Of a stretch of 64,000 nt of DNA, positions 2,881 through 30,873 are shown piece after piece. The translations under genes and the position numbers were made by a program. The notes beneath the pieces are model-generated. The model was given only the letters and a program-made list of their open reading frames with translations, searched no databases and had not been told where the DNA came from. The stretch is from NCBI RefSeq assembly GCF_013122565.1, contig NZ_CP053258.1, one strand, 5' to 3'. Every line of letters begins with the position of its first letter. Position 1 is the first letter of the stretch. Source of the stretch: Escherichia coli (GTDB lineage Bacteria; Pseudomonadota; Gammaproteobacteria; Enterobacterales; Enterobacteriaceae).

Positions 2881-3781
2881 CCGTTCCTCCGTTGGTCACG
2901 CTCCACTGCGTACATGATGCCGCCTGCGTTTTGTTCAGAACCACATCCGCCAGCGGAGAAGCCAGTTCCACACGTTGAACACCTTCAACATGCAGCGCGG
3001 CAAAAATAGCACTACGGCGAATATCCCGACCGAGCCGCGTCTGACTGGCGATGTACCTCTGCAGGCTGACTTTTGCCGCTGCCATTACCGGCTCTGCTTC
3101 CGGTCCCGGATAAAGAAAAATGGTGGCTTCCACACGGTACGGGATGATTTCTGCGCTGCGAACCGTCAGACGGTCAGCCACCGGGCGGACGTTCTCACTG
3201 TTCAGGGCTTTCTCCACCACGTCCAGTAAGTCTTTTTCTGCAGTTCCGTCGCCTTCGCGACTCAGGACAGTCAGCACCACCTCTGCAGGTGCCGGACTGG
3301 TTGCACTGGCATCCGCCACCCGACCGTCGGCGCTTCGGGCATGAAATTCATAAGCTGCAGTTGGCCCCGCAACTGAAAGTCCTTCAAAGGCTGCAGGCAC
3401 ACGCAGGCGTAACGCTTCATCACTTTCCATCACAGCCGCAACAGGCGGTACAGCGTCATCATCAGCAGGTGTCACCGTCAGGCGTTTCACGTTGTAGTTG
3501 GCAGCAATTTGGTCAAGGTCTCCGCCCATCGCGTAAGCCACCATCACCGCCTGCGCGGCTTCGTTAATGCGCTGGCGCAGAAGCAATTCACGGTAAGCGT
3601 TCTCCTGCAACAATTTGGTGACGGGTTCAGATTCAAGCTCCAGCGTACGCATCACTGCTTCCTGCTCATCTTTCGGATGAAGCGCCACAAATTCGGCCTT
3701 GCGTTCGGAAAGCAGCGTCTCAAAGTCCGGCACATCCACAATCTGCGGCGCAGGTAACTGCGAAAGGTCAATCACTGCCAT
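2873..3781 (-). CDS. Baseplate assembly protein (P2 gpJ-like)
   Basis: Start trimmed to MAVIDLSQLPAP... giving 302 aa as in P2 J; synteny. Confidence 0.85.
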   Translation of the reverse strand: MAVIDLSQLPAPQIVDVPDFETLLSERKAEFVALHPKDEQEAVMRTLELESEPVTKLLQENAYRELLLRQRINEAAQAVMVAYAMGGDLDQIAANYNVKRLTVTPADDDAVPPVAAVMESDEALRLRVPAAFEGLSVAGPTAAYEFHARSADGRVADASATSPAPAEVVLTVLSREGDGTAEKDLLDVVEKALNSENVRPVADRLTVRSAEIIPYRVEATIFLYPGPEAEPVMAAAKVSLQRYIASQTRLGRDIRRSAIFAALHVEGVQRVELASPLADVVLNKTQAASCTQWSVTNGGTDE

Positions 3782-5701: not shown

Positions 5702-6136
5702 CCAGCGCAATAATACATCGTGGGTTAAGGATTCTACGTCATCATTAATACCTAACAAACGACGCTCTGCGTAACGGACCTCCGGTCCTTTGCGACTAAC
5801 GCGATCACGCAGGCCGTAATGGTGAACACGGGCAATACGCTGCACCTTGCCTTCAAACTGTACGCTGGCAGAGTCGGCGCTGGCGGCAGTTTTCAGGTAT
5901 TTTGTGGTGCGCAGCTTTGCAAACATCTGACGTTTGATGCGCCCCTTCTTGCTACGTGCTGTTACCCTGCGCGGTTCATAACTGCTGCCATCTGGATTGC
6001 GCTGCATCCTGATATTCTGCTGCTGTGTCCGGCGCAGTTCCTGCGCCAGCTGGCGCATCATGCGGCTTCTCGTGGCTGGTTCCAGATTCGCCAGCAAGGC
6101 ACTCAGCCAGTCGTCCACCTTCTGCAGTTCAGCCAC
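5690..6136 (-). CDS. Tail completion protein (P2 gpS-like)
   Basis: 148 aa; synteny R-S-V. Confidence 0.85.
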   Translation of the reverse strand: MAELQKVDDWLSALLANLEPATRSRMMRQLAQELRRTQQQNIRMQRNPDGSSYEPRRVTARSKKGRIKRQMFAKLRTTKYLKTAASADSASVQFEGKVQRIARVHHYGLRDRVSRKGPEVRYAERRLLGINDDVESLTHDVLLRWLSN

Positions 6137-17639: not shown

Positions 17640-20054
17640 TTAATACAGGTTCCGCCACTTATCATCTTCCTGCAAACGCTGGTTCCGATAGAAGATACGC
17701 AGGCCTGCTCCTGACGGAATACTGCCGCCGCGAAGGAGTAAATCGACCTCTTTCTCGCTGCCATCAAATCCTCTGGACTTCAGTTCATAGACGAGCTGCT
17801 GTCGCTGATGGTCTGTAATTCGCTGTTTGTAGTCTTTACGCCGTTTCGGTTTCACCAGGCGTAACCTTGCAGCCAGTTCCCGGCGCTCTTTTTTGCTCAT
17901 ACTGTGCAGGTATTCGTGCAACTCCTTGTCATCCATGCGGGTAATGTCCGTTCTGGTATCCCCATCAGCTGATTTGTCTTTCCCTTGTTGGTTCAAATTT
18001 TCAGCAAGGGGACAGTTATTGCCACGAGTCCAAGGGGCGCAAGCGCCCTGGTCGGCTACCGCCTCCTGAACGTCAACGGCTTTACGAACCATTTTCCACT
18101 TCACTGCATGAGTGCAGATCTTGCCCTCTGCAATGGGTGACCAGATGCCATAAATACGAATGCCGTGATCGCCATAGGCGGTCGGCTCTTCGTTAATTTC
18201 ATAAGCAGTTCTGATGAGGTGATATTTGCGGGGAACCAGTACGCCGCCCTGCTTCATGATGTAAGTGGCAAAACAACCAGCATCAGCAGCAGCCAGGATT
18301 GCATCAAGGCGCGGGTTATCCAGTACCGGCGCACCTGCTTTTTTGTCCCCCTGTTGCCTTGCCGCCTGACCAGCCAACAATCGCAGTTCACGGTAAGCCT
18401 GACGCCCCGGAATGCCAAAGAAGCGGAATTGCTGAACACGATGCAAAGACGCCCAGGCATTCACGTATTCAGCGTTATCACGCAGAGATTTACCCGTTTC
18501 CTTGCTGATCTCGCCAGCCAGACCACGCCCGTCAATGTTCTTACTGATGTATTTCGCGATGTAGCTTGTTGGCGTACCTTTGCGCGGGTTTATCAGCTCA
18601 GACTTAAAGCGTGGTCCCGTGTTATTACCCAGCTCCTCGCGGTCTTCACGAATGGCAAACTTACGCAACAAAGCAGTAATGGCTCGGCGATCTTTTTTGC
18701 GCATAAAACACAACAGGTGCCAGTGCACTGTACCGTCATGATGCGGCTCAGCCACCCGCACGCCATACCAGCGCAATCCGGCTTTGTGCATCGCTTTACG
18801 AAATGCAGCAAACATGCCGACCAGATAATCACTGCTTTGTCTTACCGTCGCGTTTGTCCAGGTCGGGTTTGGTCTGCCGTTATTTAGCGTGGAATGGAAA
18901 CGTGACGGACAGGTGATGGTGTAGAAAACGGCGCAGTCACCGCGCATTTCCGCGATAAGCTCCAGACCTTTAACACAGGCCATCATCTCATTGCGGCGAT
19001 GCGCAGGGTTGCTGCTGCTGGCGTTTACCACGTCTTCCATATCCAGCGTGTCGCCGTCTTCGTTCACCAGTTCATGAGAACGAAAAAACTCCAGCGACTT
19101 ACGGCGCTGCTCACGTTTATGCATCACGGCTTCATAGCTGACATAGGGAGATGCTTTTTTGCTGACCAGGCAGACAGCGCGCAACTGCTCTTCCCGCCAT
19201 TCGCAACGCATCTTCCATAATTTCCGATACCACCAGTCGGCGCACAACATACGCGCCAGCGAACCCGGAATGAGTTCATAGGGCACGGGTTTACGGCGGT
19301 TTCTTTTCCGGCGGAGTTGCTCAAACGCAGGTGGGATGACATCCAGTCGCAGGGTTTCTGCTGCCACCCTTTCCCATGTCTTGCGGATTTCTTCTGGCTT
19401 AACGTCATCGGTGGCATACAAATCGCCACAAGCTGCATCAAGGCACATGCTCATATGCGCAGCTACCAGGGTGGACAGGCGTTTCACCTGATCCTGACTC
19501 ATTTCAGGCAGGATCAGCAGGCCGTCCAGCCCTTCCTGGCTCGCCATAAAGCGAAAAGCAGTGGATAGCTGACTGTCGCGTACATGCTCCAGCCGTTCCA
19601 GACATGGCTTAATCGTCTCACGCAAATAGCGGGAATAAGCCTTTGGCCTGCCCAGGCTGCTGAAGTATTCAATACGTTGCATCAGCGGCTTGCTGATATG
19701 GGAAGGCTGGGCGTTAACGTCCGCCAGAATGACCATGTCTGGATTAAAACGCTGCTGCTCATGCGCCAGCTTTGCCCGGCTAATGAGCTTATCCTGCTCT
19801 ATTTCGCGTTGGACAGGATCACGGGATTCATTAAAGAAATAACGCTCCCAGACCTGATCACTCAGAGCCTCGCGGCGCAGTTGTTCCTGCTCGTTATCGG
19901 CAGCGTACAGAGTGATCAGGTTTGAAAGCGCAGAAACCGGCGCAACTTCCGCCGGGTCCAGATAAGGGTTAATGGCCTTTTTCGGGCTGTTCCATGAGAA
20001 TGCTGCGGCGACCTCGTTAAAGCCGCTGCAGTTGTTCATATCATCATGGCTCAT
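17640..20054 (-). CDS. Replication initiation protein (P2 gpA-like rolling-circle nickase)
   Basis: 804 aa; position downstream of early genes; stop/start overlap with the methylase gene. Confidence 0.9.
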
Positions 20055-20908
20055 GCACGCACTCCGTACATGGCAGAACTATCCACGCCACGCGAAGGAT
20101 CAAATCCCACCCAGCAGCGCGCCCCGGAAACAGCAATGATTTCTGTTGCAGATTTACTCTCGCCAGCCGACACGCCGATGCTGCGTTTTGCCTTGATGTA
20201 GTGGTGAGTGAAATTGCGATACAGCGAACGAATCAGGGATGTGTCACTGTTAGAAACAATGACCGGATGTCCTTCAGATGCTCGATGTTCAAGAACGGAT
20301 GCCAGGTGATACTGGTCATCTTCAGTGAAACCATCAGTGTGATAGCCGGAAAACGTACCGTCATACGGCGGATCGCAATACACCACATCCCCCGCCTTCA
20401 ACATCGCCAGCGTTTCATCAAAGCTGGCGCAGATAAACGTTGCCCGCTGGGCTTTTTCTGCAAATGCGCGAATTTCTTTTTCAGGGAAATACGGATTTTT
20501 ATAATTACCGTAGGGAATGTTGAAATGCCCGCTCTTGTTATAGCGACATAAACCACGGTAACCGTGACGATTGAGATACAGGAAATATACCGCTTTCATG
20601 AAATCAGTAATTTCAGTGGAGTAATTAAACTCCTGCCTTATGTTGTAATAAGCCACCTCCCTGTTTGCGATCTCAAATAAAACTCTGGCGCGAGATATAA
20701 ACGATTCACAATCAGCGGCAACCTTTTTATAGAGGTTGATTAAATCAAGATTAATATCCGCAACCAGATAGCTTGGATAATCCGTCTCCATCATCACAGC
20801 ACAGGAACCCGCGAAAGGTTCAACCAGTCGCGGGCCAGCAGGAAGGTGTTTTTTCAGTTCGGACATAATTGCGGTTTTATTTCCCGCCCATTTCAGGATG
20901 GTGCTCAT
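20051..20908 (-). CDS. DNA adenine methyltransferase (Dam family, orphan)
   Basis: Start trimmed to [11 protein letters not shown]; motif I-like FAGSCAV and motif IV DPPY (VYCDPPYDG). Confidence 0.85.
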
Positions 20909-21132
20909 ACAGCACCTCCGTTGTAATGTTTGCCTTTCAGCTCTGCGATTTCCTGACAGGTAATGCAAAGCTGCACTCCCGGAATGGCGCGGCGTCGTGC
21001 TGGCGGAATTGGCGCTTCACATTCAATGCAAAGTACGCGTGACACGCCCGGTGATTTGGCACGGGCTGCACGGATATGGCGCTGGCGTTCTTCTTCAACG
21101 CGCTGCTGTACGAGATCCATTGCATCAGCCAT
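20905..21132 (-). CDS. DksA/TraR-family C4 zinc-finger protein
   Basis: 75 aa; CIECEAPIPPARRRAIPGVQLCITCQ (CxxC-N17-CxxC). Confidence 0.75.
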   Translation of the reverse strand: MADAMDLVQQRVEEERQRHIRAARAKSPGVSRVLCIECEAPIPPARRRAIPGVQLCITCQEIAELKGKHYNGGAV

Positions 21133-22195: not shown

Positions 22196-22705
22196 TCACA
22201 GCAAACCGAATGAAGCACCGAGGCCAGTCACGGTATCAACTGCACTCGCCATCGCAGGGTTAGCCTGTAAACGGGCCTGCAATGAAACAGCAGCCAACGC
22301 CATCAGTCGTGTTACAGAGTTAATGCTGCTGATAGCATCACGACGACCTGCACTGGTTTTTACATCGCCAGATACCGCACCTGCAGCAACACGCCCGATC
22401 TCTGCGGTTGCACTCATGACGTAATGTGGCAGTTTCTCTTTTGCCACCTCATTAATCGGTACGCATGGCAGGCAGTGAATCTGAGCCAGAAAACCATCTA
22501 CCAGCGTTGAATCTTCAGTCAGATCGGTAAGCAGCCAGATTTCTGGTGCGGTTAATAAATGAGGTTGAGCCGGGTTCAGCTTGTTCCGCAGAATCTGCAC
22601 ATTCATGCCAGCACGTTCTGCCAGTTGCACCAGGTTGTGGCGCAGCGCGAATGCACGACAGGCTTCATCAAAATGTGGATGTTTGGAAACTTGGTAATCA
22701 AACAT
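22196..22705 (-). CDS. cII: CII-like transcriptional activator (phage 186 CII family)
   Basis: Start trimmed to [24 protein letters not shown]...; resembles 186 CII as recalled. Confidence 0.7.
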
Positions 22706-22737
22706 GGTCGACACCTCTGATGTATCCCAAAATGGAA

Positions 22738-22959
22738 CTAGTTGAATACAACATTGCAATCAGTAAGTGCATCAACGGTAAGAGCAGCAAGGTTGATCAT
22801 TACTTTTTCTCTTTTCTTGTCTTTACGAAGACGATGCCGAGGAATGCGACCATCCGCCAACATATCGTTGATTGTGTCGATTGAAAGACCAGTAAGTTCG
22901 CTATAACGCTCGATTGTGACGTGTGGCGTATTCAGAGTTATTGAAATGTTAGGGGTCAT
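22738..22959 (-). CDS. apl: Apl/Cox-like excisionase and lytic-switch regulator (HTH)
   Basis: Start trimmed to [33 protein letters not shown]...; divergent from cI-like gene. Confidence 0.6.
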
Positions 22960-23008
22960 GATGCAACATCTCCTATTGGCTTGTGGTGAGCCTGTAGTAA
23001 TCGCGACA

Positions 23009-23024
23009 AGTACCCAATTGGGTA
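23009..23024. promoter_or_regulatory. Perfect 16-bp palindrome in the apl/cI switch region (operator candidate)
   Basis: gtacccaattgggtac; a related half-site agtacccaag recurs at about 23079-23088. Confidence 0.4.
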
Positions 23025-23054
23025 CAAAACTGATACTAGGATCGCAAAAGAGAT

Positions 23055-23651
23055 ATGTCAACATCAAAGTACCCAAGTGAGATCAAAATAAATCCCAATA
23101 AAGGTGGTAAGGCTGCGATTGAGCGATTAGTCGAAGCCTATGGCTTTACGACACGACAGGCTTTAGCTGATCACTTGGAAGTATCAAAAAGCACACTAGC
23201 GAACAGGTATTTGCGGGATACATTTCCTGCTGACTGGATAATCCAATGTGCTCTTGAAACAGGAACCTCCCTCAAATGGTTAACTACCGGACAAGGCCTT
23301 AAGCAAAGCTCGCTGACAGCAGCTACAGAAGAGCTTGTTAAGTTTCGCCTTGCCGCAGGCAAAATGATTGAAGACGGTTCATATGTCTTCGATTCATCAT
23401 TTCTTCCTGCAAACCTTTCATCACCAATTGTTATTCAGGATGGACTCGTCACATACATTTGTGATCAAAAATTTTCTGAAGTACTTGATGGAAACTGGTT
23501 AATCAATATCGACGGAACCTATTCCATTCGAAAAATCACAAGGCTTCCTAAAGGAATGATTAAAATTACAACAGCAGAGAATAGCTTTGAATGTGCATTT
23601 TCTGATATTGAAGTGGTTGCTTGTATAAGAAGTACAATAGTCTCGAATTAA
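23055..23651 (+). CDS. cI: CI-like immunity repressor (186 CI type)
   Basis: 198 aa; position between switch region and int; N-terminal HTH-like segment. Confidence 0.7.
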   Translation: MSTSKYPSEIKINPNKGGKAAIERLVEAYGFTTRQALADHLEVSKSTLANRYLRDTFPADWIIQCALETGTSLKWLTTGQGLKQSSLTAATEELVKFRLAAGKMIEDGSYVFDSSFLPANLSSPIVIQDGLVTYICDQKFSEVLDGNWLINIDGTYSIRKITRLPKGMIKITTAENSFECAFSDIEVVACIRSTIVSN

Positions 23652-23671
23652 TATAGTAAAAGGATTTTAAA

Positions 23672-25348
23672 ATGAATTCATTTGCCATCGTTATACTCTT
23701 ATTAGCATTTCTCGCCCCTGTTCTAGCTGTAATATTATTTAAACAAAGTAAAAAACACAAAGCGGCTATAGATAACCTGACAGCTAACAACATAGCCCTT
23801 TCTAACCAACTGATTGAAAATCAAGAAAAACTAGCACAGACCGTACGAGAATTATCAGATCTTGAAGGGCGAGCAGCACCATTGTGGCAATACGAAGAAT
23901 TGCACAGCGCAGTAATGGATGCAGAGAATAAGATAAAAAATGCGGACTCAATAGCCAAGCAAAAAATAGATGAAGCCCAAATTAAGGCGGCTAAAACAGT
24001 AAACGAAGCAAATTATCAAGCTCAGATAACAATAAGCAACGCTAATAGCGAAGCTATAGCAATCACCAAAGACGCTCGCGATGCACGCCTGAAAGCCAAA
24101 GAACGTCTTGATAATGCTAATAATAAAGCAAATGAGCTAATCTCAAATGCTAATGACAATGCAGTAAAAATTATTTCTGATGCAGAAGAAAGAGCAAAGG
24201 AGATTGCTGGTTCAGCATATGAAGCTAAAGAGTTTGCAGAAAAATATGAAGCAGTTGCAAAATCAATGAAAAATAAAATTGAAGGTTATGGTGATGAATG
24301 GATCATCCCTAACCGTAGTGTACTTGATGAGCTGGCAGAAAATTATGAATTTACAGATGCAGGCAAGGAATTACAAAAAGCCAGAGAGTTAACCAAATCA
24401 TTAATAAAAACTAATAAAGCTGCTTCGTGTGATTATGTTGAGCAAAACAGGCGTAATACTGCCATAAACTTTGTTTTGGATGCCTTCAATGGAAGAGTTG
24501 ACAGTATTTTATCAAAAGTCAAACACAACAATTTTGGAAAACTTTCCCAAGAAATAAAAGATGCATTTCAACTAGTAAATTACAATGGCTCTGCCTTTAG
24601 GTCCGCAAAAATAAGTGACATCTATCTTCAGGCAAGACTCAACGAGCTAAAATGGGGTGTAGCAGTTAATGAAATTATGCTCGAAGAAAAAGAAGAGCAA
24701 AGAAGGATTAAAGAACAGCTTCGTGAAGAGGAAAGAGCTCGTAGAGAATATGAAAAAGCGATAAAAGAAGCTGAAAAAGAAGAAAAAGCTATTCAGCAAG
24801 CTATAAATAAAGCAACGAAAGAACTTATGCTTGCAAATGAAGAACAACGCTTAGCTTTAGAGCAAAAAATAGCTGAACTACAGTTAAAATATGAAGAAGC
24901 TGAAGCTAAAAATCAACGAGCTATTTCTATGGCTCAACAAACCAGATCAGGCCACGTCTATATCATTAGTAATATTGGTTCATTTGGCGAAGATGTATAT
25001 AAAATTGGAATGACACGCCGCCTTGAACCACTTGATCGTGTTCGTGAACTCGGAGATGCTAGTGTTCCTTTTTCGTTCGATGTTCATGCGATGATTTATA
25101 GTGATGATGCACCATCATTAGAAAACCATCTGCATAAAGTTTTCAACGAAAAGCAGGTCAATAAAATTAACTCACGAAAAGAGTTTTTTAACGTAAATTT
25201 AAAAGAAATCAAATCAGTTATTGAAGACATGAACATCAACGCCCACTGGACAATGTTTGCAGAGGCGAAAGAATATAGAGAGTCTCTAGCTATTGAGCAG
25301 GAGCGCAAAGCAGCCACTTCCGCCAACGATGAACTACATGTTGCTTAG
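23672..25348 (+). CDS. AT-rich cargo gene: membrane-anchored coiled-coil protein with C-terminal T5orf172 (GIY-YIG-like) domain; DUF4041-type architecture; defense candidate
   Basis: 558 aa; N-terminal TM helix, long K/E/A-rich coiled coils, C-terminal GHVYIISNIGSFGEDVYKIGMTRRLEPLDRVRELGDASVPFSFDV; co-directional with cI and int. Confidence 0.85.
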   Translation: MNSFAIVILLLAFLAPVLAVILFKQSKKHKAAIDNLTANNIALSNQLIENQEKLAQTVRELSDLEGRAAPLWQYEELHSAVMDAENKIKNADSIAKQKIDEAQIKAAKTVNEANYQAQITISNANSEAIAITKDARDARLKAKERLDNANNKANELISNANDNAVKIISDAEERAKEIAGSAYEAKEFAEKYEAVAKSMKNKIEGYGDEWIIPNRSVLDELAENYEFTDAGKELQKARELTKSLIKTNKAASCDYVEQNRRNTAINFVLDAFNGRVDSILSKVKHNNFGKLSQEIKDAFQLVNYNGSAFRSAKISDIYLQARLNELKWGVAVNEIMLEEKEEQRRIKEQLREEERARREYEKAIKEAEKEEKAIQQAINKATKELMLANEEQRLALEQKIAELQLKYEEAEAKNQRAISMAQQTRSGHVYIISNIGSFGEDVYKIGMTRRLEPLDRVRELGDASVPFSFDVHAMIYSDDAPSLENHLHKVFNEKQVNKINSRKEFFNVNLKEIKSVIEDMNINAHWTMFAEAKEYRESLAIEQERKAATSANDELHVA

Positions 25349-25430: not shown

Positions 25431-26486
25431 ATGGCAGTACGAAAACTAACCACAGGGAAATGGCTTTGCGAATGTTACCCCGCCGGACGTAGCGGACGCC
25501 GTGTGCGTAAACAATTCGCCACCAAAGGCGAAGCACTGGCCTTCGAGCGATACACCATGGGGGAAATAGAAGCAAAGCCCTGGCTGGGCGAATCAGTGGA
25601 TCGTCGGACACTGAAAGATATGGTTGAGCTATGGTTCAAATTACATGGCAAATCTCTTACTGCCGGACAGCATGTCTACAACAAGCTGCTGTTGATGGTT
25701 GACGCCTTGGGAAATCCCCTTGCAACTGATCTCACCTCAAAAATGTTTGCTCACTATCGCGATAAACGCCTTACTGGTGAAATCTACTTCAGTGAAAAAT
25801 GGAAGAAAGGAGCAAGCCCAGTTACTGTTAACCTGGAGCAAAGCCATCTAAGCAGCGTTTTCAGAGAACTTTCCCGCCTGGGTGAATGGACACTTCCAAA
25901 CCCATTAGAGAAGATGCGCAAATTCACTATCGCAGAAAAGGAAATGGCATGGCTTACACATGAGCAGATTATCGAATTACTGTCTGACTGCAAACGTCAG
26001 AACCCAATTCTGGCACTGGTGGTAAAAATATGTCTAAGTACAGGCGCACGTTGGCGAGAAGCAATCAATCTTACCCGCTCACAGGTCACCAAGTACCGAA
26101 TCACCTTTGTGAGAACGAAGGGGAAGAAAAACAGAAGCATCCCTATCAGTAAAGAGCTTTATGAAGAGATCATGGCGCTCGATGGGTTCAATTTCTTCAC
26201 AGACTGCTATTTTCAATTTTTATCCGTGATGGAAAAAACGTCTATCGTTCTCCCTCGCGGTCAACTGACACACGTTCTGCGCCATACGTTTGCGGCGCAC
26301 TTCATGATGTCGGGTGGAAACATCTTGGCCTTACAAAAAATTCTCGGACACCACGATATAAAAATGACTATGCGTTATGCGCATCTGGCACCGGATCATT
26401 TGGAAACGGCGCTCCGTTTCAATCCACTGGCAACGTTACCAAATGGCGACAAAGTGGCGGCAGCGGTTGGCATTACCCCGCAATAA
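25431..26486 (+). CDS. int: Tyrosine site-specific integrase (P2/186-like)
   Basis: 351 aa; C-terminal catalytic region ...LRHTFAAHFMMSGGNILALQKILGHHDIKMTMRYAHL (R, H-x-x-R, Y). Confidence 0.9.
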   Translation: MAVRKLTTGKWLCECYPAGRSGRRVRKQFATKGEALAFERYTMGEIEAKPWLGESVDRRTLKDMVELWFKLHGKSLTAGQHVYNKLLLMVDALGNPLATDLTSKMFAHYRDKRLTGEIYFSEKWKKGASPVTVNLEQSHLSSVFRELSRLGEWTLPNPLEKMRKFTIAEKEMAWLTHEQIIELLSDCKRQNPILALVVKICLSTGARWREAINLTRSQVTKYRITFVRTKGKKNRSIPISKELYEEIMALDGFNFFTDCYFQFLSVMEKTSIVLPRGQLTHVLRHTFAAHFMMSGGNILALQKILGHHDIKMTMRYAHLAPDHLETALRFNPLATLPNGDKVAAAVGITPQ

Positions 26487-29642: not shown

Positions 29643-30873
29643 ACCCTTCGTGAGAATTTCCCATCTGTTTATCTTTTAAAAAGATAACCATCAGCGACAG
29701 CCACAAAATTCCGTTGACAAGGTTGAAGAGATTAAACAGTCCGTTGCCCCCGTTCAGCCAGGCATGTTTGCTGATTTCAATACCGACGGTAAAGATCAGC
29801 ATTTGCAGCATTCCCATCGCCGCAGAAACCGTACCTTTACTCATATCGCTGGCAAACAGGGTTAATCGCACCAGTCCCGCATTCGCCAGACCAATACCGA
29901 AAGCATAAATACTTAACCCGGCGGTCATCCATAAATACGCGTGCGATGAGATAACCGTTGCCGCAGCAGCGACCAACAGACCAATCATAATCGGCCAGCC
30001 GCCCATAATAATCAGCGAACGTACGGTGCGGCGCGAGGTCAGACGCGCTAACAGCAAGTTACCCGCAATTAACGCCCCGAAAATAGGCACTTGCAGCAAA
30101 CCATATTCATAGCTGCTCAACTGCTCGCCGGTAATGATGATAATCGGCGACTGGGCGATCCACGCCAGCAACGGCAGGCTAACGAATCCCAGCGCCAGCG
30201 CCCCCGCCACAAAGCGACCGTTCTTCAGCACCAGCTTATAATCACGACCGAGTTCTTTCAGCGACAGTTTCTCGCCTATACGCGTGGCGGTTTCAGGCAT
30301 GGCTCGTTGCAGACCGAAAAAGGAGATCGCTGCCAATGCGGCAAACAAGACAAACATCCCCTCCCAGGGCAGCACATGGATCCACGCCGCGCCCACCAGC
30401 GGACCAAGTAGCGGAGCAATCAGCGCCACGTTCGCCATCAGCGCGGTGATCTTGATACAAACCGCCTCTTCGAAGGATTCCTGAATTGCGGCGTATCCCA
30501 CAGCGCCAATGAAACAGAGGCTTATGCCCTGCAAGAAGCGCAACAGGGTGAATTGTTCAATGTTTTGCGCCAATAATATTGCCAGACAGGTGACAATAAA
30601 CCACACCACACCCGCCAGCATCACCGGCCGGCGACCAATACGATCCGACAGCGGCCCCAGGAGCCATTGTAAAAACATCCCGCCCGCCAGATACGCGGTC
30701 ATCGAAGTAGGAACCCAATCAATGCCCGCCTGATATTGTTCCACCACGGCCAACATACCGGGTTGAATCATATCGTTGCCGATATAGGTTGAAAATTCGT
30801 AAAGCACCAGACAGAGAGGGAAAAGTAACGCCTGACGTCCAAGCCTGGCACCGGAAGCTAATTTATTTTGCAT
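29641..30873 (-). CDS. mdfA: Multidrug efflux MFS transporter MdfA (Cmr)
   Basis: Trimmed to [14 protein letters not shown]... (410 aa). Confidence 0.95.

What the first reader, a model, noticed from the sequence alone, without database searches (positions are those of the whole stretch)
23009..23024. Perfect 16-bp palindrome in the apl/cI switch region
gtacccaattgggtac sits between the divergently oriented apl-like and cI-like genes, with a related half-site repeated inside the 5' end of cI. It is a candidate operator for the repressor or Apl-type regulator.
Basis: seen in the sequence. Interest (0 to 1): 0.3.

Follow-up and report, generated by a model that had tools for sequence, protein, structure and literature searches.

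The report
Repressor operator at a prophage switch
The palindrome is most likely the main binding site where a phage-186-type CI repressor shuts off the early lytic promoter of a P2/186-like prophage, which makes it an ordinary, uncharacterised member of a well-known kind of genetic switch.

Summary
The palindrome GTACCCAATTGGGTAC is real but lies at 23010-23025, one base right of the stated span. Perfection alone is not significant: about 1.2 perfect 16-mers are expected per 64 kb and two are seen. Position and repetition are what matter. It sits in the 95-bp gap between a Cox/Apl-like gene (minus strand) and a 186-type cI gene (plus strand). It lies just downstream of a near-consensus, conserved promoter (TTGACA-17-TAGTAT) that faces the apl-like gene. 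A second copy, GTACCCAAGTGAGATC, lies 59 bp away inside cI codons 5-10. Exact GTACCCAA occurs three times in the window, all here. In about 90 related loci the motif (consensus GTmCCCAAwTGGGrAC) occurs only with one CI recognition helix (66/66 against 0/23). It persists when the CI C-terminal domain is swapped, and is replaced by other repeats in phages that carry the identical Apl-like protein. It shares its CCCAATTG core with the central CI operator of phage 186 pR. Best reading: a CI operator (O1), acting with O2 to repress the pR-like promoter. It is not an Apl site. The perfect symmetry is specific to one sublineage. Binding is untested. This is a new member of a known kind and of low interest.

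The parts
23010..23025 (.). O1: perfect 16-bp palindrome GTACCCAATTGGGTAC, the proposed primary CI operator. It covers about +1/+2 to +16/+17 of the predicted pR-like promoter and about +35 to +50 of the inferred pL-like transcript.
   Evidence: Searches give sequence and position. Searches give the family consensus GTmCCCAAwTGGGrAC, in which the variable positions 3 and 14 are dyad mates. One search shows co-occurrence with the CI recognition helix VSKSTLANRY, 66/66 against 0/23. Searches show the shared CCCAATTG core with the central 186 pR operator.
23069..23084 (.). O2: second, half-palindromic copy GTACCCAAGTGAGATC inside cI codons 5-10, at about -43 to -58 of the predicted pR-like promoter, 59 bp centre-to-centre from O1.
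   Evidence: direct repeat D1, 22 nt, 82%, exact AAGTACCCAA. (only other hit with 2 or fewer mismatches near the switch). (third-codon positions of codons 1-10 are nearly invariant, pi 0.03 against 0.45 elsewhere in the N-terminal domain).
23091..23098 (+). Possible third, half-site-only element AATCCCAA, about 22 bp from the O2 centre (low confidence).
   Evidence: Synonymous sites stay frozen through cI codon 17, position 23105. The CCCAA core is seen in the sequence. This is inference only.
23033..23061 (-). Predicted early lytic promoter (pR-like): -35 TTGACA at 23061-23056 (overlapping the cI ATG), a 17-bp spacer, and -10 TAGTAT at 23038-23033. The inferred start is at 23025-23026.
   Evidence: 10/12 consensus match and the only hit in 22600-23400, though the scan's hit count is no higher than in shuffles. 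The -35 is conserved in every cI type on this scaffold, and a -10-like hexamer is kept at the same place.
22941..22969 (+). Inferred lysogenic promoter (pL-like): -35 TTGAAA at 22941-22946, a 17-bp spacer, and -10 CAACAT at 22964-22969. The start would be near 22976, face-to-face with the pR-like promoter about 50 bp away.
   Evidence: The geometry relative to the apl start codon matches the annotated 186 pL (TTGCGA-17-CATGAT, read). It is a weak consensus match, missed by the scan. Inferred by homology.
23055..23651 (+). cI-like repressor gene (198 aa), the proposed binder of O1 and O2.
   Evidence: Pfam Phage_CI_repr 8e-32 plus Phage_CI_C 3e-27. 32% identity to 186 CI. PDB 2FJR 186 CI at E 5e-27.
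22738..22959 (-). Cox/Apl-like gene (73 aa), the first gene of the early operon that the operator is proposed to control.
   Evidence: PHROG 575 'Cox-like excisionase and repressor' at 1e-31. Only weak N-terminal similarity to 186 Apl. Followed by a cII-like gene, Pfam Phage_CP76.
22960..23105 (.). 146-bp block of nucleotide-level constraint (the switch): the intergenic region plus the first 17 cI codons.
   Evidence: Diversity is 0.06-0.16 here, against 0.40 (apl third positions) and 0.49 (cI codons 18-85 third positions), in 30 lineages.

Best explanation
The palindrome is the promoter-proximal operator (O1) of the prophage's 186-type CI immunity repressor. A CI dimer, through its N-terminal helix-turn-helix domains, binds the two GTACCCAA half-sites. 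Because O1 covers the start site of the early lytic promoter (pR-like, TTGACA-17-TAGTAT on the minus strand), bound CI blocks transcription of the apl-like/cII/replication operon. A second site, O2, has one perfect half-site and lies 59 bp away, upstream of the -35 and inside the first codons of cI. O2 probably binds a second dimer of the same CI oligomer, so that the core promoter is clamped or wrapped between them, by analogy with the 186 CI wheel. By silencing pR, CI would also relieve interference on the convergent, weak pL-like promoter that drives cI itself. Shown here: sequence, position, repetition, conservation pattern, strict co-occurrence with one CI DNA-binding domain, and similarity to the 186 operator. 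Inferred: both promoters and their start sites, actual binding, oligomeric wrapping, and the effect on pL.
For: (1) The gene context is a 186-type switch: CI with both Pfam domains, a Cox/Apl-like gene, CII, and an integrase. (2) O1 directly abuts a 10/12 consensus promoter pointing at the apl-like gene. The -35 is kept in every immunity type on this scaffold, and a -10-like hexamer is kept at the same place. (3) Exact GTACCCAA occurs 3 times in 64 kb, all within 75 bp flanking that promoter. (4) On a shared apl-side scaffold, the O1 motif is present in 66/66 loci whose CI has recognition helix VSKSTLANRY or a single-substitution variant. It is present in 0/23 loci with ISQSTMANRY or VSKSTMANRY, which instead carry their own repeated elements at the same two positions: TCACATTTCG twice, or GTTCACA..TGGGTAC twice. 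(5) The motif stays with the CI N-terminal domain (75-100% identity) even where the C-terminal domain has been exchanged (27-44% identity, still Pfam Phage_CI_C). (6) Homology with heteroimmune Klebsiella phages stops at window 23007, three bases before the palindrome. (7) The variable positions within O1 (3 and 14, plus the centre) are symmetric about the dyad axis. (8) The central of the three annotated CI sites at 186 pR is TCTCCCAATTGAGAGA, which shares CCCAATTG. (9) Synonymous sites over O2 are frozen.
Against: There is no binding or transcription data of any kind. The promoter is a consensus match, and the scan's hit count is no higher than in shuffles. The whole 146-bp switch is equally conserved, so conservation does not single out O1. 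The loci are phylogenetically related, so the 66/66 against 0/23 association is not made of independent events. The geometry differs from 186: two recognisable sites 59 bp apart (about 5.6 helical turns, not in phase) instead of three sites two turns apart, with O1 at the start site rather than in the -35/-10 spacer. No distal FL/FR-like or pB-like copies of the motif were found. Most relatives carry an imperfect dyad (5-7 of 8 symmetric pairs), so perfect symmetry is not required.
Confidence: 0.8

Rival explanations
1. The palindrome is an operator for the Cox/Apl-like protein, the lytic-side regulator and excisionase, which would bind between the convergent promoters as 186 Apl does.
For: In 186 the Apl sites fill the interval between the pR -10 and the pL -10. 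O1 lies inside the equivalent 63-bp interval here (22970-23032). The first gene of the early operon is a Cox-like excisionase/repressor.
Against: The identical protein WP_000188448.1 is encoded next to window-type O1 (L005) and next to quite different sequences at that position (L007, L009, L010), so the protein does not depend on the palindrome. 186 Apl is monomeric and binds 6-bp direct repeats 10-11 bp apart (PMC7498355), not a dyad. The weak hit in the end of int near the attachment site (26435, 2 mismatches) is within chance expectation, about 2.4 per window (plus my arithmetic).
Confidence: 0.05
2. The palindrome acts at the RNA level. It would form a 6-bp stem with a 4-nt loop at the very 5' end of the early (pR-like) transcript and stabilise it, or it would form a structure in the cI leader.
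For: If transcription starts at 23025-23026, the RNA begins with GUACCCAAUUGGGUAC, which folds at -8.2 kcal/mol. The commonest family variant also folds fully on the minus strand through a G-U pair, at -7.5.
Against: About 14 of the 38 distinct family segments lose the position 3/14 pair on the minus strand. Where folded, such variants kept only a 3-bp stem or an interrupted stem, at about -3.5 kcal/mol. There is no U-tract and no terminator-like hit. RNA structure does not explain the second copy upstream of the promoter, where the early transcript never reads, or the co-variation with the CI DNA-binding domain. A hairpin would be a by-product of any palindromic operator.
Confidence: 0.07
3. 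It is a chance palindrome with no function of its own, lying in a conserved regulatory region.
For: One to two perfect 16-bp palindromes are expected in any 64 kb. The perfect form is confined to one sublineage. O1 is no more conserved than its flanks.
Against: The repeated exact half-site is found nowhere else in the window. The pattern of variation is symmetric. Strict linkage to CI type, the same-position repeats in two other immunity types, and the shared core with a proven 186 operator are all hard to explain by chance.
Confidence: 0.05

Closest known systems
Central CI operator of the three at coliphage 186 pR (GenBank NC_001317 feature 23011-23067; locus of vir mutations)
   Same: It is an inverted repeat of 16-18 bp with the same inner core (186 TCTCCCAATTGAGAGA against GTACCCAATTGGGTAC; CCCAATTG is identical). 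It lies at the early lytic promoter of a convergent pR/pL switch, next to the start of a homologous cI gene (32% identity overall, about 47% in the N-terminal domain). Additional sites accompany it at the same promoter.
   Different: The outer three bases of each half-site differ (TCT against GTA). The 186 site lies in the -35/-10 spacer, while this one lies at +1 to +17. 186 has three sites two helical turns apart spanning 56 bp (PMC3675496), while here there are two recognisable sites 59 bp apart, one of them inside the cI coding sequence, and the pR -35 overlaps the cI start codon. Binding is proven for 186 and untested here.
186 CI sites at FL, FR and pB (ATTCAC-N5-GTGAAT, 17 bp)
   Same: These sites belong to the same repressor family. 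One relative (L074/L077) has operators that join a GTTCAC half to a GGGTAC half (GTTCACATCTGGGTAC), which links the two half-site types.
   Different: No distal copy of the window's motif was found at FL-, FR- or pB-equivalent positions. The element at the apl/cII junction (TCCCAAAATGGAAC) is conserved regardless of cI type.
P2 / WPhi C repressor operators
   Same: They have the same overall logic: a face-to-face Pe/Pc switch in a P2-like phage, with operators over the early promoter.
   Different: P2-type C proteins are about 100 aa, unrelated in sequence, and recognise direct repeats (PMC1904263, PMC1904268). Here the element is a dyad and the repressor is 186-type.
Lambda OR/OL operators
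   Same: They are roughly 17-bp dyad operators bound by dimers of a two-domain repressor, with several sites and cooperativity.
   Different: Lambda promoters are back-to-back, three adjacent operators are shared by CI and Cro, and the repressor family is unrelated.

Membership tests
186-type CI operator at the early lytic promoter | The adjacent gene encodes a 186-type CI (N-terminal Phage_CI_repr HTH plus C-terminal Phage_CI_C oligomerisation domain). | tested here: met
   Pfam hits at 8e-32 and 3e-27. PDB 2FJR (186 CI) at 5e-27.
186-type CI operator at the early lytic promoter | The site has inverted-repeat (dyad) architecture of about 16-17 bp. | tested here: met
   It is a perfect 16-bp palindrome. 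The family consensus is a dyad with symmetric variable positions.
186-type CI operator at the early lytic promoter | The site overlaps the early promoter that faces a weaker lysogenic promoter. | tested here: inconclusive
   A consensus promoter TTGACA-17-TAGTAT ends 7 bp from O1. The pL-like promoter is inferred from identical geometry to the annotated 186 pL.
186-type CI operator at the early lytic promoter | The site has sequence similarity to proven 186 operators. | tested here: met
   9 of 16 positions match, including the contiguous CCCAATTG of the central pR operator. The outer bases differ.
186-type CI operator at the early lytic promoter | Three operators are spaced two helical turns apart. 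| tested here: not met
   Only two clear sites exist, 59 bp apart, with a possible half-site 22 bp beyond O2.
186-type CI operator at the early lytic promoter | Distal assisting sites (FL/FR) and a site at the late-activator promoter (pB) are present. | tested here: not met
   No O1-like site beyond chance was found elsewhere in the window or in the complete relative KP12, including upstream of ogr. Sites of a different sequence class cannot be excluded.
186-type CI operator at the early lytic promoter | Operator sequence co-varies with repressor DNA-binding specificity (immunity specificity). | tested here: met
   66/66 against 0/23 co-occurrence with the recognition helix on a common scaffold. 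The motif is retained across C-terminal-domain swaps. The homology break with heteroimmune phages falls at 23007.
186-type CI operator at the early lytic promoter | CI binds the site specifically and represses the promoter. | not testable with these tools
   This needs EMSA or footprinting and reporter assays.
Apl/Cox (recombination directionality factor) operator | Short (about 6 bp) direct repeats spaced 10-11 bp apart, three or more adjacent. | tested here: not met
   The element is one dyad, and the only repeat is 59 bp away. Apl architecture is taken from PMC7498355.
Apl/Cox (recombination directionality factor) operator | The site sequence follows the identity of the Apl/Cox protein. | tested here: not met
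   The same protein accession WP_000188448.1 occurs with and without the palindrome.
Intrinsic terminator / structured RNA | A G+C-rich hairpin followed by a U-tract, or a stem kept by compensatory changes. | tested here: not met
   No terminator-like site was found in 22600-23400. The position 3/14 pair is lost in roughly a third of the variants.

The most novel reading that the evidence does not exclude
In this widespread enterobacterial immunity type, the CI DNA-binding domain, the early promoter and its two operators form one frozen 146-bp-plus-NTD cassette that recombines independently of the CI C-terminal domain. One operator and the pR -35 are embedded in the repressor's own first codons. 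Prophages would then be homoimmune at the DNA level but could differ in oligomerisation or antirepressor sensitivity. Repression would use a two-site clamp 59 bp apart around the core promoter, a geometry different from the three-operator, two-turn array on the 186 CI wheel.
Probability: 0.3. Interest if true: 0.4.

Novelty: new member of a known kind. Interest (0 to 1): 0.22.

Why it matters
If confirmed, it defines the operator and immunity specificity of a P2/186-like prophage type found in at least 164 of 5426 complete E. coli genomes and in Klebsiella. No characterised phage shares this CI DNA-binding domain. It would give a second, naturally diverged example against which to test the 186 CI 'wheel' model, because the site number, spacing and promoter position all differ. 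It would also help predict superinfection immunity among these prophages, which carry defence cargo such as the PD-Lambda-1/SNIPE gene just downstream of cI. It does not change any general principle.

Tried and rejected
(1) I tested whether palindrome perfection is significant in itself. It is not: 2 are seen and 1.2 expected. (2) I scanned the window and the complete relative KP12 for further O1-like dyads (FL-, FR- or pB-like). Only chance-level hits appeared, at 26435 and 38668 with 2 mismatches, against about 2.4 expected. (3) The candidate FR-like element TATCCCAAAATGGAAC at 22723 was rejected as a type-specific CI site, because it is conserved in all cI types. It is kept as a passing observation. 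(4) The Apl-operator reading was rejected on co-variation and on site architecture. (5) The terminator or RNA-hairpin reading found no U-tract and the stem is not maintained. (6) I tried repositioning the promoter so that O1 would fall in the -35/-10 spacer as in 186, but no acceptable hexamers exist (reading). (7) I looked for intermediate sites with 186-like 21-bp phasing between O1 and O2 and found none recognisable. An imperfect dyad ATCGCAAAAGAGAT at 23041-23054 lies midway, but it is partly shared with other cI types, so it remains unresolved. (8) The primary 186 operator papers (Dodd & Egan 1996 and 2002; Shearwin 2002) are not held, so I relied on the GenBank feature table and PMC3675496. 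(9) 186-like phages with Rha-type lytic regulators (Cartapus, SopEPhi, ST15-OXA48phi14.1) and PsP3 have switch regions that cannot be aligned, with other dyads, and were uninformative. (10) A fixed-offset comparison with vB_EcoM-813R9 works only for 18-29 kb because of indels elsewhere, so it was not used.

Full report
OBSERVATION. GTACCCAATTGGGTAC occurs once in the window, at 23010-23025, one base to the right of the stated span. It is a perfect 16-bp palindrome. The window contains two perfect 16-bp palindromes (6042 and 23010). First-order Markov randomisations of the window give 1.16 +/- 1.1, and 67% have at least one. Perfect symmetry is therefore not evidence of anything in itself.

The setting is what stands out. 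The palindrome lies in a 95-bp intergenic gap. The 10-mer AAGTACCCAA is repeated exactly 59 bp to the right, giving a second site GTACCCAAGTGAGATC at 23069-23084. The exact 8-mer GTACCCAA occurs only three times on both strands of the 64 kb, all within these 75 bp.

CONTEXT. The region is the lysis-lysogeny switch of a P2/186-like prophage.
- The ORF at 23055-23651 (plus strand, 198 aa) has both Pfam domains of the 186 repressor: Phage_CI_repr at 8e-32 and Phage_CI_C at 3e-27. It is 32% identical to 186 CI and matches the solved 186 CI structure 2FJR at 5e-27.
- On the minus strand, 22738-22959 encodes a 73-aa protein of PHROG 575, 'Cox-like excisionase and repressor' (1e-31). It has only faint N-terminal similarity to 186 Apl.
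- Next on the minus strand come a CII-family gene (Pfam Phage_CP76), then replication genes.
- Downstream of cI lie a PD-Lambda-1/SNIPE-type defence gene and the integrase.

PROMOTERS (predicted, not shown). The only sigma-70-like match in 22600-23400 is on the minus strand: -35 TTGACA at 23061-23056, a 17-bp spacer, and -10 TAGTAT at 23038-23033, a 10/12 match. The scan finds no more hits than in shuffled sequence, so this match carries little weight alone. However, it points at the apl-like gene. Its -35 (which overlaps the cI ATG) is conserved in every related immunity type on this scaffold, and a -10-like hexamer is kept at the same place. The expected start is 23025-23026. That places O1 at about +1/+2 to +16/+17 and O2 at about -43 to -58.

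For the lysogenic promoter I relied on the annotated 186 record. 186 pL is TTGCGA-17-CATGAT, with the -10 beginning 4 nt beyond the apl start codon. The window has TTGAAA (22941-22946)-17-CAACAT (22964-22969) in exactly the same register relative to its apl-like start codon. The two promoters would then be face-to-face with start sites about 50 bp apart. The figure is 62 bp in 186, and 40-60 bp is typical of P2-like phages (PMC7498355).

COMPARATIVE EVIDENCE. The region is 99.7% identical in Escherichia phage vB_EcoM-813R9 and 95% identical in Klebsiella phage KP12. In about twenty heteroimmune Klebsiella phages the homology (about 94%) covers only the cII/apl side and stops at window 23007, three bases before the palindrome. 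Of 5426 complete E. coli genomes, 396 match part of the region and 164 match most of it. A scan of IMG/VR with the CI protein gave 80 loci spanning 100% to 47% identity.

Across these loci the O1 position reads GTmCCCAAwTGGGrAC. The commonest form is GTCCCCAAATGGGAAC. The perfect palindrome occurs only in the window's own sublineage, and the other variants keep 5-7 of the 8 symmetric pairs. The positions that vary (3 and 14, plus the central pair) are symmetric about the dyad axis.

Three further results tie the element to the repressor's DNA-binding domain.
(i) Among loci that share the apl-side scaffold, the O1 motif is present in 66 of 66 whose CI recognition helix is VSKSTLANRY or a one-residue variant. 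It is present in 0 of 23 with ISQSTMANRY or VSKSTMANRY. These loci are related, so these are not independent events.
(ii) The motif stays with the N-terminal domain (75-100% identity) even where the C-terminal domain has been replaced by a 27-44% identical one that is still Pfam Phage_CI_C.
(iii) The other immunity types carry their own repeated elements at the same two positions flanking the promoter. The CFT073/4LV2017 type has TCACATTTCG twice, 49 bp apart. L074/L077 has GTTCACATCTGGGTAC and GTTCACAGATGGGTAC. The latter joins a 186-like GTTCAC half to the window's GGGTAC half.

CONSTRAINT. In 30 lineages with distinct N-terminal-domain coding sequences, third-codon diversity is 0.40 in the apl-like gene and 0.49 in cI codons 18-85. 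It is only 0.06 in cI codons 1-17 and 0.10-0.16 across the intergenic region. The whole 146-bp stretch 22960-23105 therefore behaves as regulatory DNA. This includes the cI codons that contain the pR -35 and O2. It also means O1 is no better conserved than its neighbours, so conservation alone does not single it out. Recombination of this block cannot be excluded as a contributor.

COMPARISON WITH 186. The 186 record annotates three CI sites at pR (23011-23067), plus FL, FR and two sites at pB. The central pR site is TCTCCCAATTGAGAGA. It shares the contiguous core CCCAATTG with O1 and differs in the outer three bases of each half. FL, FR and pB are ATTCAC-N5-GTGAAT.

The differences from 186 are real. 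The 186 operators are two helical turns apart and span 56 bp (PMC3675496), and the central one lies in the -35/-10 spacer. Here there are two recognisable sites 59 bp apart (about 5.6 turns), one at the start site and one upstream of the -35 inside cI. No O1-like copies occur at FL-, FR- or pB-equivalent places in the window or in the complete relative KP12. The window ends inside the tail genes, so its own ogr region is not available.

RIVALS.
- Apl/Cox operator: the identical protein WP_000188448.1 sits next to the palindrome-type sequence in one genome and next to unrelated sequence at that position in others. 186 Apl binds 6-bp direct repeats 10-11 bp apart as a monomer. This reading is rejected.
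- RNA hairpin: the early transcript would begin with a -8.2 kcal/mol hairpin, and the commonest variant still folds on that strand through a G-U pair. However, about a third of the variants lose the position 3/14 pair, there is no U-tract, and the reading does not explain O2 or the link to CI type. At most this is a by-product.
- Chance: this is excluded by the clustering, the symmetry of variation and the co-occurrence.

MECHANISM (committed). CI dimers bind O1, and more weakly O2. O1 occludes the start site of the early promoter. The two sites are probably held by one CI oligomer so that the core promoter is wrapped between them, as proposed for the 186 14-mer wheel. Silencing pR would relieve interference on the convergent pL-like promoter that expresses cI, the downstream defence gene and int. 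Binding, start sites, cooperativity and the pL effect are all inferred.

VERDICT. This is a sound observation with a one-base coordinate slip. The 'CI operator' reading is well supported by comparison (confidence about 0.8), and the 'Apl operator' reading is not. It is a new, uncharacterised member of the 186-type switch family with a somewhat different operator layout, and it is of low general interest.

Noticed in passing
window 23672-25348 (+): The gene directly after cI encodes a 558-aa DUF4041 + T5orf172/MUG113 protein. It matches PADLOC PD-Lambda-1 (3e-120) and is annotated in RefSeq as 'SNIPE associated'. SNIPE is described in bioRxiv 10.1101/2025.11.03.685801 as a membrane-bound nuclease that cleaves phage DNA at injection. 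The gene sits in the lysogenic operon between cI and int. A 14-bp palindrome AAATGAATTCATTT (23670-23683) spans its start codon.
   Followed up: partly
window 22725-22738; KP12 (L093) 30545-30640; 4LV2017 (L095) 3030-3120: TCCCAAAATGGAAC lies at the apl-stop/cII-start junction, where FR lies in 186. It is conserved in all cI types. It resembles two repeats 42 bp apart upstream of ogr in relatives (TTCGAAATGGAAT and TTTCAAAATGGAAT). This parallels 186, where FR and pB share one CI site class. It could be a second, type-independent CI site class, or a site for another conserved regulator. Untested.
   Followed up: partly
window 23055-23105: Synonymous sites of the first 17 cI codons are almost invariant (pi 0.06 against 0.49 in codons 18-85), and this extends 21 bp beyond O2. 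AATCCCAA at 23091-23098, 22 bp from the O2 centre, could be a third half-site.
   Followed up: partly
L055-L073 against the window cI (23055-23651): Many relatives keep the CI N-terminal domain (75-92% identity) and the operators but carry a C-terminal domain only 27-44% identical, still Pfam Phage_CI_C. This looks like domain shuffling, and it might alter oligomerisation or antirepressor sensitivity without changing DNA specificity.
   Followed up: partly
L010 (CFT073 prophage) 1049-1908; L003; L051; L075: The heteroimmune CFT073/4LV2017-type CI is about 310 aa and contains two Phage_CI_repr HTH domains in tandem before the C-terminal domain. L051 and L075 also encode tandem N-terminal domains. 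In L051 a GTCCCCAATTGGGAAC dyad lies inside the coding sequence between the two domains.
   Followed up: no
4LV2017 (L095) about 3045-3062: Upstream of ogr, 4LV2017 has CTTCACAATGGAGAAC, close to its own promoter-proximal element CTTCACAAAACGGAGAAT. KP12 (window-type cI) has CTTCGTAATAGAGAAC at the same place. This suggests a type-specific CI site at the late-activator promoter in that immunity type but not in the window's type.
   Followed up: no
window 23041-23044 and 23081-23084; 20051-20968: GATC sites lie in the spacer of the predicted pR-like promoter and in the right half of O2. The prophage encodes its own Dam-like adenine methylase. A possible methylation influence on the switch was not examined.
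   Followed up: no
window 6042-6057: This is the only other perfect 16-bp palindrome in the window, inside the late-gene region. It was not examined and is consistent with chance expectation.
   Followed up: no
window 23004: The window has C (atcgCgac) where nearly all relatives, including the 99.7%-identical phage 813R9, have T. This is a private substitution six bases left of the palindrome, in the interval where Cox/Apl-type sites would be expected.
   Followed up: no
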